DNA of 64,000 nucleotides from Escherichia phage vB_EcoM-S1P5QW: the sequence record OL956808.1. One strand, 5' to 3'. The position numbers and the translations under genes are program-made. The notes under the pieces are model-generated. The model was given only the letters and a program-made list of their open reading frames with translations. It had not been told where the DNA came from and did not search any database. Below are positions 7,270 through 45,273 of this stretch, piece after piece (within the stretch, counting starts at the first letter, position 1; each line of letters starts with the position of its first letter).

Positions 7270-7446
7270 ATGGTTGATAAAGAGATTAAAATTGACCAGT
7301 ACTATCGTGTTAACGGACATATCGTTATTGTTACAGCAGTCGATGATTTAGATGTTCATTATACTGTGATTAAATGGAACAAACGTATGATTTGTGATCG
7401 TGCTGTATTTAGTTCAGTTGCTAAGGAAATTAAACTCCATGGGTAA
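7270..7446 (+). CDS. hypothetical small protein (58 aa)
   Basis: not in ORF track (<60 aa); GAGGA SD, directly downstream of an early promoter. Confidence 0.3.
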   Translation: MVDKEIKIDQYYRVNGHIVIVTAVDDLDVHYTVIKWNKRMICDRAVFSSVAKEIKLHG

Positions 7447-38617: not shown

Positions 38618-38852
38618 ATTAAGTTGGTACCAGTTTAAATCTCTTATGGCAAATGTTAAAGCTGTCATTCAAGAAAATTCAGGACCTGATAATGTTACTA
38701 TTCGCGAAAAAGCTTTAAAGATAGTATACAGTCTTGAAGAGATACAAAAAGATATTGAATCTATGGCAAAATTTATTGATGAGCCTATTAATAAAGTTTA
38801 TATTCAAGACTATACTGTAGGCCAAATTCGTGATTTAGCGAGGAAAATTTAA
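38610..38852 (+). CDS. hypothetical protein, member 3 of tandem paralog trio (start uncertain)
   Basis: ATG with GAGG SD; alternative ATG at 38595. Confidence 0.4.
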   Translation: MIELSWYQFKSLMANVKAVIQENSGPDNVTIREKALKIVYSLEEIQKDIESMAKFIDEPINKVYIQDYTVGQIRDLARKI

Positions 38853-39535
38853 TGTTTGATTTTATTATAGATTTTGAAACAATGGGAAGCGGTGAAAAAG
38901 CAGCTGTTATTGATTTGGCTGTAATTGCTTTTGACCCTAACCCAGAAGTAGTTGAATCATTCGATGAACTAGTTTCACGTGGCATTAAAATCAAATTTGA
39001 TTTAAAAAGCCAAAAAGGACATCGTCTTTTTACTAAAAGCACTATCGAATGGTGGAAAAATCAGTCTCCTGAAGCTCGAAAAAATATTGCACCATCCGAT
39101 GAAGATGTAAGCACCATTGATGGTATTGCAAAATTCAACGATTACATCAATGCACATAATATCGATCCTTGGAAATCTCAAGGCTGGTGCCGTGGAATGT
39201 CGTTTGATTTTCCAATTTTAGTCGATCTCATTCGCGATATTCAACGTCTTAATGGCGTTTCCGAGAATGAGCTTGATACATTTAAGTTAGAACCATGTAA
39301 ATTCTGGAATCAGCGTGATATTCGTACCAGAATTGAAGCACTTCTGCTTGTTCGTGATATGACCACGTGTCCTCTTCCAAAGGGAACTTTAGATGGATTC
39401 GTTGCACATGATTCTATTCATGACTGTGCGAAAGACATCCTGATGATGAAGTATGCTTTGCGATACGCTATGGGTCTTGAAGATGCTCCGTCAGAGGAAG
39501 ATTGCGATCCTCTGTCTCTTCCAACAAAACGATAA
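38852..39535 (+). CDS. dexA: exonuclease A (DEDDh 3-prime to 5-prime exonuclease)
   Basis: 227 aa, N-terminal DFET motif, recognised as T4 DexA. Confidence 0.85.
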   Translation: MFDFIIDFETMGSGEKAAVIDLAVIAFDPNPEVVESFDELVSRGIKIKFDLKSQKGHRLFTKSTIEWWKNQSPEARKNIAPSDEDVSTIDGIAKFNDYINAHNIDPWKSQGWCRGMSFDFPILVDLIRDIQRLNGVSENELDTFKLEPCKFWNQRDIRTRIEALLLVRDMTTCPLPKGTLDGFVAHDSIHDCAKDILMMKYALRYAMGLEDAPSEEDCDPLSLPTKR

Positions 39536-39541
39536 AAAGTT

Positions 39542-39571
39542 GTTTACTTCCTCGGTTAGTTGTGGTATTAT
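39542..39571 (+). promoter_or_regulatory. T4-type early promoter
   Basis: GTTTAC-N18-TATTAT. Confidence 0.55.
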
Positions 39572-39598
39572 AACACCATAGCTACTGAGGATAATAAA

Positions 39599-40111
39599 AT
39601 GAAAATTTATCGTGTTGAATCATCGTTTAGCGCATTAAATGATGATAGTGGTATAGTCAAAATTAGGCAAGAGTTATGCGTTCAATCAACTCCTTATCGT
39701 GGATTTGATTCTATGAAAACTCGAACTTGGCTAAAATTTTGCGGTATTAATTCATCGTCATTTCATCATCATAGCGATAATTATGAAAGCCATGAAAGTA
39801 TTCCTATTCCACACGATGATAAGTTATTAGTTGAAAATGCTAATGATGTTATTAAAACTAAATGGAATAAAGATTATTCACGAATTGAAAATTATATTCC
39901 ATTGTGGTTTATTGCATTATATCATTTTGCTTTCGCTAGTGAATATGATATGATGAGATGGTTCACTCGAGAAGAGCGTGAAGACTTAAAAGAACGTGGA
40001 ATGTACATTGCGATTTATGAAGTGCCAGATGACCAAGTTATCATTGGCGGACATCAAGTAATGTTCCGCAAATCGCATGCCGAATTAAAAGGCTTTATTA
40101 CTTTAGATTAA
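39599..40111 (+). CDS. hypothetical protein
   Basis: 170 aa from ATG with GAGGA SD after an early promoter. Confidence 0.45.
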   Translation: MKIYRVESSFSALNDDSGIVKIRQELCVQSTPYRGFDSMKTRTWLKFCGINSSSFHHHSDNYESHESIPIPHDDKLLVENANDVIKTKWNKDYSRIENYIPLWFIALYHFAFASEYDMMRWFTREEREDLKERGMYIAIYEVPDDQVIIGGHQVMFRKSHAELKGFITLD

Positions 40112-40121
40112 AGAGAAAATC

Positions 40122-40559
40122 ATGATTAAAAATAATGCTGTTTATCAATTGAAAAAATTTGATGAAATTAAGAATTTTTCGGTACTGTCTAATACAGCTC
40201 ATAATAAGTTTTGTGAACTTCTTGGTTTAACTGGCGGATATCCTTTTACTGTTATTAGTGTTAATAGCGGAATTCTTATCGGTATGATGTATATTGAAAT
40301 TAGAAACTATTATGGAATGGTATCATCGCTTATTATTTATGAAAAAGATTTTAGTCTATTGACAGAAATTGAAAAACCTGAAGATCCAACTGATCTGCTG
40401 CGTAAGGCAGTTTATATTCGTCGTCCATTCGCGAATCCTGTTGGTGGATGGGTGACTGATCAGTGGATTGAAGATGGTGTTGAACTTCTGAACGTAGTTC
40501 ATGCTGGAGAGTACTCTGTAGTTCCTCGCAGCGCAGTGATTAATGTTCGTGTAAGCTAG
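40122..40559 (+). CDS. hypothetical protein with conserved C-terminal DQW(I/V)EDG module
   Basis: 145 aa; shares C-terminal ~30 aa with the next two ORFs. Confidence 0.45.
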   Translation: MIKNNAVYQLKKFDEIKNFSVLSNTAHNKFCELLGLTGGYPFTVISVNSGILIGMMYIEIRNYYGMVSSLIIYEKDFSLLTEIEKPEDPTDLLRKAVYIRRPFANPVGGWVTDQWIEDGVELLNVVHAGEYSVVPRSAVINVRVS

Positions 40560-40588
40560 TTTACAAACTCTTGGGACCAGAGTATAAT
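40559..40588 (+). promoter_or_regulatory. T4-type early promoter
   Basis: GTTTAC-N18-TATAAT. Confidence 0.55.
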
Positions 40589-40631
40589 GGTCCTGCGGAG
40601 TATAAATCTTAACAACAAAGAGAGAAAAATT

Positions 40632-41105
40632 ATGATTACTATCGGTGAAATTAAGCGTGTATCGTCTGCATCTCGTTCTAAAGCTGCAGGTCGTTTAGTT
40701 GAAGTGGTAGGACTTCGTACTAATGGTACTGGTCGTGTTAAAGAAGTTAAAGTTCGAATCATTCCTAGTTCTGGAAAAACTGAAACTCAGTACGCTTACG
40801 TAAGTCCTAAATTTCTGGAAACTCGTGTTAGCTCTCATTTTGCTTCTGTTGAAGAAGTTGAATCTACTGAGTCTAATACACAATTTAAATGGGCGTTGTG
40901 TAAAGGCGTTGAATTTGTAACTGATGAAGAATTCGATTATATTGATGATTTCGCTGGTCCAAGTAAAACTGATAGGATGTGTGGCTTCATCACAGACCAA
41001 TGGGTTGAAGATGGTGAAAAGCTCTACAATATCGTATTCTTAGGTGACTTCCGGGTTGTTGAAGAATCTGAAATCACTCGTTATGCTTCTCCTCGTAAAG
41101 CTTAA
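40632..41105 (+). CDS. hypothetical protein, paralog with DQWVEDG module
   Basis: 157 aa from ATG; full-length paralog of the next ORF. Confidence 0.45.
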   Translation: MITIGEIKRVSSASRSKAAGRLVEVVGLRTNGTGRVKEVKVRIIPSSGKTETQYAYVSPKFLETRVSSHFASVEEVESTESNTQFKWALCKGVEFVTDEEFDYIDDFAGPSKTDRMCGFITDQWVEDGEKLYNIVFLGDFRVVEESEITRYASPRKA

Positions 41106-41114
41106 GGAATTATT

Positions 41115-41534
41115 ATGAATATTGTAAATCTCTCTACTGGTGATTACGTATATGTATCCGTTGCTTCTCGTTCTAAAGTTGCAGGAAAGCTGGTTGAAGT
41201 TCTTTCTGTAAGTGATCCAGTTTTTGGTCGTAACGAGGTTAAAGTTCGTGACGCTGATGGTAACATTGGTTATGTCTCAAGTCAGTTCATTGAGCCAGAA
41301 GAACGCGCATTTAAATGGAAACTTTGTTCTTCAGTTTTAGTTGTAAAAGACCATAAATTCACAATTGCGGCGGCAACAGATGGAACTCCATGGACAACGA
41401 ATCAAGTCGCTGGTTTTATTTCGGACCGTTGGGTAGAAGATGGTGTCAAGCTCTACAATATTGTTTTTGCAGGCCAGTTCATGGTAGTTCCTGAATTCCA
41501 AATTAAAAAATGGTGCGAAGCAGCTTTAGCATAA
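41115..41534 (+). CDS. hypothetical protein, paralog with DRWVEDG module
   Basis: 139 aa. Confidence 0.45.
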   Translation: MNIVNLSTGDYVYVSVASRSKVAGKLVEVLSVSDPVFGRNEVKVRDADGNIGYVSSQFIEPEERAFKWKLCSSVLVVKDHKFTIAAATDGTPWTTNQVAGFISDRWVEDGVKLYNIVFAGQFMVVPEFQIKKWCEAALA

Positions 41535-41643
41535 ATTTGCATAAAGTTTAAATTTTTTTTTCATAAAACTATATACATCAGTAGTTGATTATGGTACTAT
41601 ATCAATATCAACTACTGATACAGAAAACAACTTGGAGAATAAA

Positions 41644-41913
41644 ATGGAAAATTTAATTATCATCGAGCAATCTTTCAATGATTATGGTATGGCTTACGGT
41701 TATCGTGCGATAATGGAAGATTCTCGTGGATGTGTTATCGATATTGCTGAATGTAAAGATTTACTGCAGCTTTTGAAGATTGTTCGCAAAAATTGGGATT
41801 GCGAAAATATTAAAGTTCGAGTTGTTACAGAAGAAGAAACTGTTTTTCATGATGTAAAATTCGCTAAAGGTGCTGCTACTCTTCTGAAACGCATCGCTCC
41901 ACTGTTCAATTAA
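41644..41913 (+). CDS. hypothetical protein
   Basis: 89 aa from ATG with GGAGA SD; downstream of a promoter embedded in a stem-loop. Confidence 0.4.
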   Translation: MENLIIIEQSFNDYGMAYGYRAIMEDSRGCVIDIAECKDLLQLLKIVRKNWDCENIKVRVVTEEETVFHDVKFAKGAATLLKRIAPLFN

Positions 41914-41926
41914 TGAGGAAATTGTA

Positions 41927-42142
41927 ATGAAACGTAAAATTGTTCAGAATTGCACTAATGACGAATTTGAAGATGTACTATTCGATCCAGATTTGGTAGT
42001 AGTTCAAAAAGAACATACCGTTAAGTTTACTCACTTGACTTCGGTTTATGTGTATGAAAAGGTTGGTGATAAACAACCAATTTACGGTGTATTTCGTGAA
42101 ATTACTGAAGATGGCACAACTTACTGGAAGGAAACTTATTAA
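41927..42142 (+). CDS. hypothetical protein
   Basis: 71-aa ORF, GAGGAAA SD. Confidence 0.4.
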
Positions 42143-42567
42143 TGGCTATTAAATTTGAAGTTAATAAATGGTATCAATTTAAAAATAAACAAGCTCAAGA
42201 AGATTTTATCAAGGACCATACTGAAAACGGAATTTATGCACGTCGTCTTGGTATGGAACCTTTTAGAGTTACAGATATTGACTATCTTGGTCGTCCTACT
42301 AAACTTGTGACATCTAGTGGAAAATTGGCGTTATCTTCTGGTAAAGATATTTTGGATGAAGATTTTATCTGGCTTTCAACGAGCGAAGCTGTGTTCTTTG
42401 ATGAAGTGGAAAATCCATACCAGGCAGCCGAAGAGCAAGAGCAGGAAGAGAAAGAGCAAGAACAAATAGAAGATTTCACAGAATTCCCGGTCATGAAAGT
42501 TACTATTGAAAATAATGAACATGCATGGTCCTTGTATCAGATGTTGAAAGCACATTTTAAGGAATAA
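42142..42567 (+). CDS. hypothetical acidic protein (possibly GoF-like)
   Basis: 141 aa, Glu/Gln-rich acidic stretch; size matches T4 goF. Confidence 0.35.
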
Positions 42568-42569
42568 TT

Positions 42570-42746
42570 ATGCCAATGTATGATTATAAATGCCAATCCG
42601 AAGATTGCGGGCATGAATATGAAAAAATTAAAAAGATTTCTGAACGAGAAAATGATGTTTGCCCTAAATGCCATCGTTTGTCTACTCGTCGGCCTTCTGC
42701 TCCTAAGCATGTGAATGGTGGTTTTTACGATTTACTTAAAGGGTGA
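42570..42746 (+). CDS. FmdB-family-like zinc-ribbon protein (58 aa)
   Basis: not in track; MPMYDYKCxxxxCGHEYE...CPKCH pattern. Confidence 0.4.
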   Translation: MPMYDYKCQSEDCGHEYEKIKKISERENDVCPKCHRLSTRRPSAPKHVNGGFYDLLKG

Positions 42747-42748
42747 TT

Positions 42749-43120
42749 ATGTTTAAAATCGGTAAGAAATATCGTATTCGCGAAGGCGAAGAAAAGAAAT
42801 ATCTAATGTCTGCTATTTATAGGAATGGTTCTATTAATGCTGTAATATCTACAAGCGAATTTATCGTTGAAGATATGAAAGGTCATAATGTTACAATGAT
42901 TAGTACAGCATCTGGAAATGATGGAAAAATTCTTCATAGTTGTCAGAGTAATGTTCTAATTTATGATGAAGAATTTGACTTCTTCAAAGAAGTTTCCGAA
43001 GATTTTGATTTTGAATGTACTATTACTATGAAATCTGGTGACCCTCTTTCTTTTACAGTTAAAGATGAAAGAAGCCGTTTAAGAATTATTAGTCTCCTTC
43101 AAGCTATTAAATTTAAGTGA
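42749..43120 (+). CDS. hypothetical protein
   Basis: 123 aa from ATG; track start is GTG. Confidence 0.4.
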   Translation: MFKIGKKYRIREGEEKKYLMSAIYRNGSINAVISTSEFIVEDMKGHNVTMISTASGNDGKILHSCQSNVLIYDEEFDFFKEVSEDFDFECTITMKSGDPLSFTVKDERSRLRIISLLQAIKFK

Positions 43121-43403: not shown

Positions 43404-43455
43404 AGCTTTATGATTGCCGGAGTATAATATTCCCGAAACCAAACGAGGATAAGTG

Positions 43456-45273
43456 ATGATTAAGAATGAAATTAAAATTCTGAGCGATATTGAACATATC
43501 AAAAAGCGTAGCGGCATGTACATTGGCTCTTCAGCTAATGAAATGCATGAGCGCTTTCTGTTTGGTAAATGGGAAAGTGTTCAGTATGTACCTGGTCTTG
43601 TTAAGCTTATTGATGAAATTATCGATAACTCAGTAGATGAAGGTATTCGTACTAAGTTTAAATTCGCAAATAAAATTAATGTTACTATTAAAAATAATCA
43701 AGTAACAGTTGAAGATAACGGTCGTGGTATTCCACAGGCGATGGTTAAAACACCTACCGGTGAAGAAATTCCTGGTCCTGTTGCTGCGTGGACTATTCCA
43801 AAAGCAGGTGGTAACTTCGGTGATGATAAAGAACGCGTCACCGGCGGTATGAATGGTGTTGGTTCTAGTTTGACAAACATTTTTTCTGTGATGTTTGTTG
43901 GTGAAACTGGCGATGGTCAAAATAATATTGTAGTTCGTTGTTCAAACGGCATGGAAAATAAATCATGGGAAGATATTCCTGGAAAATGGAAAGGAACCCG
44001 TGTTACTTTCATTCCTGATTTTATGTCATTTGAAACTAATGAGCTGTCCCAAGTTTATCTTGACATTACATTAGATCGTCTCCAGACACTTGCTGTTGTT
44101 TATCCTGATATTCAATTTACCTTTAATGGTAAAAAGGTTCAGGGTAATTTTAAGAAATATGCACGCCAATATGATGAGCATGCTATTGTTCAAGAACAAG
44201 AAAATTGTTCTATTGCGGTTGGTCGTTCACCGGATGGTTTTCGTCAATTAACATACGTCAATAACATTCATACTAAGAATGGTGGCCATCACATTGACTG
44301 TGTTATGGATGATATTTGTGAAGACCTTATTCCACAAATCAAACGTAAGTTCAAAATTGATGTAACTAAAGCACGTGTCAAAGAATGTTTGACTATCGTT
44401 ATGTTTGTTCGTGATATGAAAAACATGCGATTTGATTCTCAAACTAAAGAGCGTTTGACTTCTCCATTTGGCGAAATTCGTAGTCATATTCAGCTTGATG
44501 CTAAAAAGATTTCACGCGCTATTCTAAATAATGAAGCAATTCTAATGCCAATTATTGAAGCAGCATTAGCTCGTAAATTGGCAGCAGAAAAAGCAGCAGA
44601 AACTAAAGCAGCTAAAAAGGCTTCTAAAGCTAAGGTTCATAAACATATCAAAGCGAATCTTTGCGGTAAAGATGCTGACACTACATTGTTCTTGACTGAG
44701 GGTGATTCAGCTATCGGATATCTTATTGATGTTCGCGATAAAGAACTTCATGGTGGTTATCCATTGCGCGGTAAAGTTCTTAATAGCTGGGGTATGTCAT
44801 ATGCCGATATGCTTAAAAACAAAGAACTATTTGATATTTGCGCAATCACTGGTCTAGTTCTTGGTGAAAAAGCTGAAAACTTGAATTATCGCAATATTGC
44901 TATTATGACTGATGCTGACCATGATGGTCTAGGAAGCATTTATCCTTCTCTGCTCGGATTTTTTAGTAATTGGCCAGAATTGTTTGAGCAAGGACGAATT
45001 CGCTTTGTCAAAACTCCTGTAATCATCGCTCAGGTCGGTAAAAAACAAGAATGGTTTTATACAGTCGCTGAATATGAGAGTGCCAAAGATGCTCTACCTA
45101 AACATAGCATCCGTTATATTAAGGGACTTGGCTCTTTGGAAAAATCTGAATATCGTGAGATGATTCAAAATCCAGTATATGATGTTGTTAAACTTCCTGA
45201 GAATTGGAAAGAGCTTTTTGAAATGCTCATGGGAGATAATGCTGACCTTCGTAAAGAATGGATGAGCCAGTAG
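43456..45273 (+). CDS. 39: DNA topoisomerase II large subunit (GyrB-like ATPase + TOPRIM), fused form
   Basis: 605 aa continuous ORF from ATG with GAGGA SD; contains both the ATPase part and the TOPRIM part (MTDADHDG). Confidence 0.9.
   Translation: MIKNEIKILSDIEHIKKRSGMYIGSSANEMHERFLFGKWESVQYVPGLVKLIDEIIDNSVDEGIRTKFKFANKINVTIKNNQVTVEDNGRGIPQAMVKTPTGEEIPGPVAAWTIPKAGGNFGDDKERVTGGMNGVGSSLTNIFSVMFVGETGDGQNNIVVRCSNGMENKSWEDIPGKWKGTRVTFIPDFMSFETNELSQVYLDITLDRLQTLAVVYPDIQFTFNGKKVQGNFKKYARQYDEHAIVQEQENCSIAVGRSPDGFRQLTYVNNIHTKNGGHHIDCVMDDICEDLIPQIKRKFKIDVTKARVKECLTIVMFVRDMKNMRFDSQTKERLTSPFGEIRSHIQLDAKKISRAILNNEAILMPIIEAALARKLAAEKAAETKAAKKASKAKVHKHIKANLCGKDADTTLFLTEGDSAIGYLIDVRDKELHGGYPLRGKVLNSWGMSYADMLKNKELFDICAITGLVLGEKAENLNYRNIAIMTDADHDGLGSIYPSLLGFFSNWPELFEQGRIRFVKTPVIIAQVGKKQEWFYTVAEYESAKDALPKHSIRYIKGLGSLEKSEYREMIQNPVYDVVKLPENWKELFEMLMGDNADLRKEWMSQ

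What the first reader, a model, noticed from the sequence alone, without database searches (positions are those of the whole stretch)
40122..41534. Tandem family of three proteins sharing a C-terminal DQW(V/I)EDG module
Three consecutive ORFs (145, 157 and 139 aa) end in a near-identical roughly 30-aa module, for example GFITDQWVEDGEKLYNIVFLGDFRVV, GFISDRWVEDGVKLYNIVFAGQFMVV and GGWVTDQWIEDGVELLNVVHAGEYSVV. The last two are also paralogous over their full length (SASRSKAAGRLVEV versus VASRSKVAGKLVEV, FKWALC versus FKWKLC). One early promoter lies within the cluster. A diversifying N-terminal part on a conserved C-terminal module looks like a shared interaction domain with variable specificity, as might be expected for host-takeover or anti-defence factors, but function is unknown.
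Basis: seen in the sequence. Interest (0 to 1): 0.5.

Follow-up and report, generated by a model that had tools for sequence, protein, structure and literature searches.

The report
T4-type MotB.1, MotB and MotB-like genes

Summary
Three consecutive + strand ORFs (40122-40559, 40632-41105, 41115-41534) share a C-terminal module far beyond chance: pairwise BLASTP E 9e-10, 2e-11 and 8e-29, shuffle z 14-18. It is not a new family. All three pass the gathering threshold of Pfam PF17613 "motB". ORF1 is MotB.1 (78% identical to T4 MotB.1). ORF2 is MotB (85% to RB69 MotB, 46% to T4 MotB). ORF3 is the second motB copy known from RB69 (87%).

Patterson-West et al. 2021 (PMC7827196) already reported that MotB and MotB.1 share a C-terminal domain (CTD) on different N-terminal domains (NTDs), and that some phages carry extra copies. 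T4 MotB is a characterised abundant early DNA-binding protein that alters H-NS silencing.

- The shared unit is the whole CTD of about 51-64 aa, not 30 aa (hhalign 98.7%).
- The family is narrow: 29 clusters among 1.84 billion representatives.

Side finding: the 119-aa MotB.1 of the T4 reference genome comes from a one-base insertion seen only in that sequence.

Novelty: already known. Interest: low.

The parts
40122..40559 (+). ORF1 = motB.1 (145 aa): LSm/SH3-like N-terminal barrel plus the MotB-family C-terminal domain
   Evidence: phrog_2333 E 2.9e-66. 78% identical to T4 MotB.1 over 116 aa. Pfam motB 32.6 bits (cut-off 25), matching only aa 104-139. AF2 model pLDDT 80.
40395..40556 (+). 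ORF1 C-terminal domain (aa 92-145). The module core GWVTDQWIEDGVELLNVVHAGEYSVVPRSA lies at about 40443-40538.
   Evidence: hhalign aligns ORF1 92-142 with ORF2 88-151. Predicted strands 96-99, 107-117, 120-127, 130-135, a short helical turn, then 139-143. G109-H127 is almost entirely invariant in 45 homologues.
40560..40588 (+). Early-promoter-like site (TTTACA, 17 nt spacer, TATAAT) upstream of motB
   Evidence: 11 of 12 consensus match. Identical in T4 while the flanks differ. Not tested experimentally here.
40632..41105 (+). ORF2 = motB (157 aa): basic KOW/SH3-like NTD, disordered acidic linker, C-terminal barrel
   Evidence: Pfam motB 141.3 bits over aa 1-153. phrog_1671 E 2.4e-68. 46% identical to T4 MotB and 85% to RB69 MotB P0009. 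AF2 pLDDT 82, with residues 66-82 below 50. NTD charge +6.5 to +7.5 and CTD -7.
40884..41102 (+). ORF2 C-terminal domain (aa 85-157)
   Evidence: Pfam motB 73.1 bits on this fragment alone. Predicted strands 92-105, 109-126, 129-136, 139-144, a short helical turn, then 148-151.
41115..41534 (+). ORF3 = second motB copy ('MotB-like', 139 aa): non-basic KOW-like NTD, almost no linker, C-terminal barrel
   Evidence: 39% identical to ORF2, E 8e-29. Pfam motB 71.8 bits. 87% identical to RB69p010. Absent from T4. NTD charge -1.2 to +0.8 in all ORF3-type homologues.
41310..41531 (+). ORF3 C-terminal domain (aa 66-139)
   Evidence: Pfam motB 56.9 bits on this fragment alone. Alignment A5.

Best explanation
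The cluster is the motB.1 / motB / motB-like gene trio of a T4-like phage (Tequatrovirus of the GiZh/RB3 type). It lies in the usual early-gene region between dexA-motB.2 and cef-goF.

All three proteins end in the same small five-stranded beta-barrel domain of 51-64 aa.

ORF2 is the orthologue of MotB. In T4, MotB is shown to be an abundant early protein that binds DNA tightly without sequence specificity, co-purifies with H-NS and StpA on DNA, changes the H-NS footprint, de-represses H-NS-silenced host genes, is toxic when expressed alone, and doubles burst size.

Inferred here:
- In MotB the consistently basic KOW-like NTD is the main DNA contact.
- The shared barrel, acidic in its module core and rich in aromatic residues, is a protein-contact or self-association surface rather than the DNA-binding surface (my estimate about 0.45, against about 0.3 for nucleic-acid binding).
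- MotB.1 puts the same barrel on an LSm-like NTD, and ORF3 puts it on a non-basic KOW-like NTD, so the paralogues probably share a partner but differ in what they bring to it.
- The trio arose by duplication and domain exchange from a single KOW-plus-barrel gene, the state still found in more distant T4-like phages.
For: Identity:
- Pfam PF17613 is above the cut-off for all three ORFs, with matching PHROG families.
- Synteny and annotation match JLBYU24, PP01, T4 and RB69.
- Identities to the T4 and RB69 proteins are given.

Shared domain:
- hhalign 98.7%, 51 aligned columns.
- AF2 models show the same strand pattern in both CTDs, with a 13-residue longer beta1-beta2 hairpin in MotB.

Selection rather than recent copying: 7-10 of the 15-21 identical residues in the module use different codons, and nucleotide identity is 51-70%.

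Charge pattern: MotB NTDs are +1.8 to +8.5 in 44 of the 45 MotB-type sequences, while CTDs range from -7 to +3. The module core carries 5-8 acidic residues in the window's three copies (4 in T4 MotB) (sequence).

Origin:
- Contigs L006 and L007 carry one family gene between motB.2 and cef.
- Hybrids with a KOW NTD and a MotB.1-type CTD exist.

Published function: PMC6070864, PMC7827196, and at second hand Son et al. 2021 as cited.
Against: - No experiment has assigned DNA binding to either MotB domain. The published in-silico reading calls the CTD a cold-shock-like OB fold that could bind DNA.
- ORF2 is only 46% identical to the T4 protein that was studied.
- ORF3-type proteins have never been tested.
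- Deletion of T4 motB.1 has no phenotype in the laboratory.
- CTD net charge is not acidic in T4 MotB (+2.8).
Confidence: 0.85

Rival explanations
1. The shared C-terminal domain is the nucleic-acid-binding part, a cold-shock-like OB fold as proposed in the literature. All three proteins would then be DNA or RNA binders anchored by the same domain, with the N-terminal domains as variable effector parts.
For: - HHpred-based assignment in PMC7827196.
- The module is rich in aromatic residues on predicted strands (GF/GW, DQW, LY/LL, VF/VH, F/Y), loosely like the RNP motifs of cold-shock domains (my reading of the sequence).
- Small barrels often bind nucleic acids.
Against: - The module core is acidic (net -4 in ORF1, -6 in ORF2) and has no basic residue conserved between the subfamilies. 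The invariant K130 and E145 of MotB are E121 and R136 in MotB.1.
- The predicted strand 2-3-4 meander has two-residue turns and a short helical turn before strand 5, which is the SH3-like pattern and not the OB pattern.
- The MotB NTD is the consistently basic part.
Confidence: 0.3
2. The family consists of anti-defence factors. The conserved module would bind a host immune component and the variable N-terminal parts would give specificity.
For: - The genes are early, dispensable and variable in copy number, in an accessory region of T4-like genomes.
- H-NS-type silencing can be seen as a defence that MotB counteracts.
Against: - I found no report linking MotB, MotB.1 or MotB-like proteins to a dedicated defence system.
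- Deleting motB.1 has no phenotype on laboratory hosts.
- The MotB phenotype is explained by general DNA binding.
- The PADLOC scan is empty, although that library holds defence proteins rather than anti-defence proteins.
Confidence: 0.08
3. The near-identity of the module reflects recent gene conversion or recombination between neighbouring paralogues, with the module acting as a recombination linker rather than being held by selection on the protein.
For: - Short identical DNA runs are shared by ORF2 and ORF3 (for example AAGCTCTACAATAT).
- Mosaic proteins exist in which different NTDs carry an identical C-terminal tail (P0173 against ORF1).
- A deletion fusion, P0282, joins MotB.2 to the module.
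Against: - Nucleotide identity in the module is only 51-70%, and roughly half of the conserved residues use different codons.
- The module stays at 0.90 mean identity across MotB.1 homologues whose NTDs fall to 0.12.
Confidence: 0.03

Closest known systems
T4 MotB (Pfam PF17613; PMC6070864, PMC7827196)
   Same: - ORF2 aligns over its full length (46% identity, E 5e-48).
- It has the same two-domain layout and the same position downstream of an identical early-promoter-like site.
   Different: - ORF2 belongs to the RB69-type branch (85% to RB69 MotB).
- Its linker is shorter and its CTD is strongly acidic (-7, against +2.8 in T4).
- No biochemistry exists for this branch.
T4 MotB.1 (LSm-like fold family with GoF and Frd.2; PMC12152347)
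   Same: - ORF1 is 78% identical over 116 aa.
- It has the same NTD and the same position upstream of motB.
   Different: - ORF1 (145 aa) has a complete CTD.
- The 119-aa T4 reference protein used in the literature is cut inside the module by a one-base insertion that no other T4 record has.
RB69 motB plus second motB copy (RB69p011, RB69p010)
   Same: - ORF2 and ORF3 are 85% and 87% identical to this pair and lie in the same order and spacing.
- PMC7827196 already notes that RB69 has two motB copies and one motB.1.
   Different: - In RB69, motB.2 lies after the pair instead of before motB.1.
- The motB.1 of the RB69 reference is broken by two frame changes.
Tudor / KOW / chromo SH3-like small beta-barrels (53BP1, PHF19, Spt5, NusG)
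   Same: - Five strands with a short helical turn before the last strand.
   Different: - Sequence identity is 9-19% and no Pfam Tudor or KOW hit reaches threshold.
- No evidence of an aromatic cage or of methyl-lysine binding.
- The resemblance is of fold, not family membership.
Other phage antagonists of H-NS (T7 gp5.5, T4 Arn)
   Same: The outcome, relief of H-NS silencing, is the same (discussion of PMC7827196).
   Different: gp5.5 and Arn bind H-NS directly. [quoted passage not shown]

Membership tests
Pfam PF17613 motB (MotB family in the broad sense) | HMM score at or above the gathering cut-off of 25 bits | tested here: met
   ORF1 32.6 bits, ORF2 141.3 bits, ORF3 71.8 bits. The CTD fragments alone score 35.4, 73.1 and 56.9 bits.
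MotB proper (Category 1 of PMC7827196) | Full-length match: KOW-like NTD (SRSKAAG...EVKVR...YV) plus CTD | tested here: met
   ORF2 aa 1-153 match profile positions 2-158 of 162. ORF3 matches phrog_1671 over aa 5-139 and ORF2 over its full length, although its NTD alone scores 21.4 bits, below the cut-off. ORF1 does not meet this feature because its NTD is different.
MotB proper | Position in the early region between dexA/motB.2 and cef/goF of Tevenvirinae | tested here: met
   Window order is dexA, motB.2, ORF1, ORF2, ORF3, a 93-aa ORF, cef, goF. The neighbourhood is the same in JLBYU24, PP01, T4 and RB69.
MotB proper | Non-specific tight DNA binding, co-purification with H-NS/StpA, toxicity, nucleoid compaction | not testable with these tools
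   Known only for T4 MotB (PMC6070864, PMC7827196).
MotB proper | Basic N-terminal domain | tested here: met
   ORF2 NTD has pI 10.7 and charge +6.5 to +7.5. ORF3 does not meet this: its NTD is -1.2, as in all ORF3-type homologues.
MotB.1 (Category 2 of PMC7827196; LSm-like fold family of PMC12152347) | MotB.1-type NTD followed by DPTDLL...GWVTDQWIEDGVELLNVVH | tested here: met
   ORF1: phrog_2333 E 2.9e-66; 78% identical to T4 MotB.1; alignment A3. The NTD model has strands 7-10, 42-49, 55-61, 67-73 and 80-83 plus helix 24-37.
OB fold, cold-shock-like (published assignment of the CTD) | Five-stranded barrel with OB strand order and a helix or long loop between strands 3 and 4 | tested here: inconclusive
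   [not shown]
Tudor / KOW (SH3-like) domains | Sequence-profile membership (Pfam KOW, Tudor or SH3) | tested here: not met
   Only sub-threshold SH3_3 hits on the ORF3 NTD (13.6-15.8 bits, cut-off 27). Fold similarity only.

The most novel reading that the evidence does not exclude
The shared, near-invariant SH3-like barrel, acidic in its module core, is a docking domain. Through it MotB, the MotB-like copy and MotB.1 would associate with each other, or with the basic KOW domain of neighbouring MotB molecules, on DNA. The three paralogues would then form one mixed nucleoid-coating assembly in which non-basic (ORF3) or LSm-like (MotB.1) heads modulate or cap MotB filaments.
Probability: 0.12. 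Interest if true: 0.45.

Novelty: already known. Interest (0 to 1): 0.15.

Why it matters
As a discovery it matters little. The family, its shared C-terminal domain and its copy-number variation are already in Pfam, PHROGs and the literature.

- The homologous unit is a complete small barrel that looks SH3/Tudor-like rather than OB-like, and its module core is acidic. This argues for testing it as a protein-contact domain.
- The second MotB copy has lost the basic charge of the N-terminal domain, so it is probably not a simple duplicate of a DNA-coating protein.
- The MotB.1 protein of the T4 reference genome is truncated inside this domain by what looks like a sequence error. Published work on the 13.8-kDa form may not reflect the natural 143-aa protein.

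Tried and rejected
- Chance similarity: rejected by BLASTP, shuffles and hhalign.
- Further copies of the module in the window: none found in a six-frame HMM scan.
- Recent gene conversion as the cause of the conservation: rejected on codon usage.
- Sequence relatives with solved structures: none at E up to 1.
- Other Pfam domains in the isolated CTD or NTD fragments at E up to 10: only sub-threshold SH3_3.
- Defence-system libraries: no PADLOC hit, which says little about anti-defence.
- Structured RNA in 39400-42200: no Rfam match at E up to 1.
- A wider family outside T4-like phages: the exhaustive profile search gave only 29 clusters. The three weakest are repeat proteins or a fragment that I regard as noise.
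- BFVD structural relatives are also essentially T4-like phage proteins.
It was repeated with P0095.
- Son et al. 2021 (PMC8450097) could not be read and is cited only second-hand.
- I could not obtain model coordinates, so no domain-level superposition, surface mapping or check of the possible K130-E145 / E121-R136 contact was possible.

Full report
**What is there**

The window is a T4-like phage. The stretch 39500-42200 is 98.9% identical to Shigella phage ESh18 and 96-98% identical to the JLBYU24, GiZh and RB3 group of Tequatrovirus. On the + strand the gene order is:
- dexA (38852-39535)
- motB.2 (39599-40111)
- ORF1 (40122-40559, 145 aa)
- ORF2 (40632-41105, 157 aa)
- ORF3 (41115-41534, 139 aa)
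- a 93-aa ORF, then cef, goF, 39.2 and further small ORFs
- a fused 606-aa gene 39 (annotation of relatives)

**Is the repeat real?**

Yes.
- Pairwise BLASTP gives E 8e-29 for ORF2/ORF3 (39% identity over the full length), 9e-10 for ORF1/ORF2 and 2e-11 for ORF1/ORF3 (53% over 32 aa).
- The best 30-residue ungapped BLOSUM62 scores are 90-113. In 1000 shuffles the mean is 18-20 and the maximum 41 (z 14-18).
- An HMM built from the three modules finds only these three places in a six-frame translation of the whole 64 kb.

**What is it?**

It is the MotB family.
- All three ORFs exceed the 25-bit gathering cut-off of Pfam PF17613 'motB, modifier of transcription'. ORF2 scores 141 bits over its full length and ORF3 72 bits. 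ORF1 scores 33 bits, matching only residues 104-139.
- PHROGs separates ORF1 (phrog_2333) from ORF2 and ORF3 (phrog_1671, 'MotB-like transcriptional regulator').
- ORF1 is 78% identical to T4 MotB.1.
- ORF2 is 46% identical to T4 MotB and 85% identical to RB69 MotB (P0009).
- ORF3 is 37% identical to T4 MotB and 87% identical to RB69p010, the second motB copy of RB69.
- T4 itself has only motB.1 and motB.

The window therefore carries a T4-type motB.1 next to an RB69-type motB pair.

**What the literature already says**

- Patterson-West et al. 2018 (PMC6070864) showed that T4 MotB is toxic in E. coli, binds unmodified and modified DNA without detectable specificity, co-purifies with H-NS and StpA, and doubles burst size.
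- Patterson-West et al. 2021 (PMC7827196) predicted a KOW-like NTD and an 'OB-fold' CTD. They showed that MotB changes the H-NS footprint and de-represses part of the H-NS regulon.
- The same 2021 paper reported explicitly that MotB and MotB.1 share the CTD on different NTDs, that four categories of such proteins exist in Tevenvirinae, and that RB69 has two motB copies, one motB.1 and a 29-aa orphan CTD peptide.
- Kim et al. 2025 (PMC12152347) assigned the MotB.1 NTD to an LSm-like fold family together with GoF and Frd.2, and found no phenotype for a motB.1 deletion.

Extent of the shared domain:
- Profile-profile comparison of 45 MotB.1-type and 53 MotB-type sequences aligns ORF1 residues 92-142 with ORF2 residues 88-151 at 98.7% probability.
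- The homologous unit is therefore the whole CTD. MotB has a 13-residue insertion between the first two strands.

Predicted structure:
- AlphaFold2 models (pLDDT 80 and 82) give the same pattern in both CTDs: five strands, two-residue turns between strands 2-3 and 3-4, and a short helical turn before strand 5.
- In ORF1 the strands are 96-99, 107-117, 120-127, 130-135 and 139-143. In ORF2 they are 92-105, 109-126, 129-136, 139-144 and 148-151.
- In MotB a disordered acidic linker (residues 66-82) separates the CTD from the NTD.

Fold comparison:
- This pattern and these hits fit an SH3-like small barrel better than an OB fold.
- I had no residue ranges or coordinates, so the published OB assignment is questioned rather than overturned.
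- No sequence relative has a solved structure.

**Conservation and charge**

- The module is the most conserved part of both subfamilies. Mean pairwise identity is 0.90 against 0.45 for the NTD in MotB.1-type proteins, and 0.76 against 0.60 in MotB-type proteins.
- This is selection on the protein, not recent copying. Within the window, 7-10 of the 15-21 identical residues use different codons, and nucleotide identity is 51-70%.
- MotB-type NTDs are basic in 44 of 45 MotB-type sequences (+1.8 to +8.5) and linkers are acidic and 15-56 residues long. CTD charge varies from -7 to +3.
- ORF3-type proteins have a neutral NTD (-1.2 to +0.8) and almost no linker.
- The module core itself carries 5-8 acidic residues in the window's three copies (4 in T4 MotB) and no basic residue conserved between subfamilies.
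- The invariant K130 and E145 of MotB are E121 and R136 in MotB.1. This could be a swapped salt bridge, but I could not check the contact.

**Distribution and origin**

- tblastn with the 32-aa module finds 780 phage records and 1551 places. Most records have two places, and those of the RB3 type have three. All are T4-like phages of Enterobacterales.
- An exhaustive profile search of 1.84 billion representative proteins returns only 29 clusters at 50% identity.
- Divergent members combine a MotB-type KOW NTD with a MotB.1-type CTD (P0266, P0270, P0273-P0275, P0278, P0279).
- In two divergent T4-like contigs a single such gene lies between motB.2 and cef (L006, L007).
- The simplest history is one ancestral KOW-plus-barrel gene, followed by duplication and N-terminal domain exchange in Tequatrovirus and Mosigvirus.

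**Expression signals**

- A near-consensus sigma-70 site (TTTACA, 17 nt, TATAAT) lies at 40560-40588, in the 72-base gap between ORF1 and ORF2. It is identical in T4 although the neighbouring coding DNA has diverged.
- A second, weaker site (TTTACT, 17 nt, TATTAT with an upstream TG) lies at 39543-39571, before motB.2.
- ORF3 starts 9 bases after the ORF2 stop, behind an AAGGA motif, so it is probably co-transcribed with ORF2.

**How it most likely works**

Shown for T4 MotB and assumed for ORF2: abundant early synthesis, sequence-independent coating of DNA, altered H-NS-DNA complexes, and de-repression of silenced genes.

Inferred here: the basic KOW-like NTD is the DNA contact. The shared barrel, whose module core is acidic and aromatic, is a protein-contact or self-association surface common to the three paralogues. 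I put this at about 0.45, against about 0.3 for the published idea that the CTD binds nucleic acid. The remainder is unknown.

MotB.1 would bring an LSm-like head to the same partner and ORF3 a non-basic KOW-like head. None of this was testable here.

**Side finding**

- The T4 reference (AF158101.6 = NC_000866.4) has one extra G inside the module of motB.1 (GGATTGGAAGATGG against GGATTGAAGATGG). This ends the annotated protein at 119 aa.
- The next reading frame still encodes EDGVELLNVVHAGEYSVVPRSAVVAILN.
- The extra-G version occurs only in those two records. Eleven other T4 genome records, plus RB55 and RB59, match the single-G version exactly.
- The 143-aa protein P0160, identical to the reference protein up to the shift, is seen on 256 contigs, against 2 for the 119-aa form.
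- The RB69 reference has two frame changes in the same domain, which explains the published '29-aa peptide'.
- The 13.8-kDa MotB.1 studied in PMC12152347 matches the size of the reference (truncated) form. That paper reports it as largely insoluble, which would fit a barrel lacking three strands. That link is my inference.

**Verdict**

This is an already known and annotated family, so novelty and interest are low.

Noticed in passing
L003 3792-3860 (NC_000866.4 about 7270-7329); window equivalent 40465-40480: The T4 reference motB.1 (119 aa) is cut inside the shared module by one extra G. The extra-G version occurs only in AF158101.6 and NC_000866.4. Eleven other T4 records plus RB55 and RB59 have the intact frame, which encodes 143 aa. 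Published work on the 13.8-kDa MotB.1 matches the truncated form in size.
   Followed up: yes
L005 3877-4373 (RB69 NC_004928 8376-8872): The RB69 reference motB.1 has two frame changes within the module. They produce a 133-aa ORF and the 29-aa orphan ORF RB69p012, the 'Category 3 peptide' of PMC7827196. Close relatives such as P0171 encode an intact 164-aa protein. Whether this is a sequencing error or a real pseudogene was not resolved.
   Followed up: partly
window 41577-41619: A strong intergenic stem-loop lies between ORF3 and the next ORF: a 13-bp outer stem plus a 5-bp inner stem, -20.6 kcal/mol for the 97-nt stretch, z -5.0 against shuffles. No U-run follows and there is no Rfam match. 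Its function is unknown.
   Followed up: partly
proteins P0147, P0170, P0171, P0198, P0240, P0270, P0273-P0275, P0278, P0279: A short motif, roughly [IV]D.D[VIL].[SC][MT]Y..P, recurs in the N-terminal extensions or linkers of many MotB.1-type and hybrid proteins. It is absent from the window's ORF1. It could be a short docking motif.
   Followed up: no
window 40122-41534 compared with T4 (L003) and RB69 (L005): The cluster is mosaic. ORF1 is T4-type (78% to T4). ORF2 and ORF3 are RB69-type (85% and 87% to RB69, only 46% and 37% to T4 MotB). This suggests a recombination junction near the conserved promoter or module.
   Followed up: partly
protein P0282 (43 aa): A metagenomic ORF joins the first 11 residues of MotB.2 (MKIYRVESSFS) directly to the end of the module (EDGVELLNVVHAGDFSVVPRSAVVAILN). 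This looks like a deletion across motB.2-motB.1.
   Followed up: no
window 43453-45273: Gene 39 (topoisomerase II large subunit) is a single 606-aa ORF here, whereas T4 has it split into genes 39 and 60.
   Followed up: no
window 42743-43120: The 125-aa ORF begins MIMFKIGKKYRIREGEEKKY. By eye this resembles the IEIGKTYKLVEP start of the LSm-like NTDs of MotB.1-type proteins (P0198, P0240), so it may be another member of the small-barrel family described in PMC12152347. Not tested.
   Followed up: no
window 39543-39571: A second promoter-like site (TTTACT, 17 nt, TATTAT, preceded by TG) lies just upstream of motB.2. It would drive motB.2 and motB.1.
   Followed up: no
ORF2 K130/E145 against ORF1 E121/R136 (window about 41019-41021 and 41064-41066; 40482-40484 and 40527-40529): Two positions that are invariant or nearly invariant within each subfamily carry opposite charges in the other subfamily (K...E in MotB, E...R in MotB.1). 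This suggests a swapped salt bridge in the barrel. The contact could not be checked without model coordinates.
   Followed up: no
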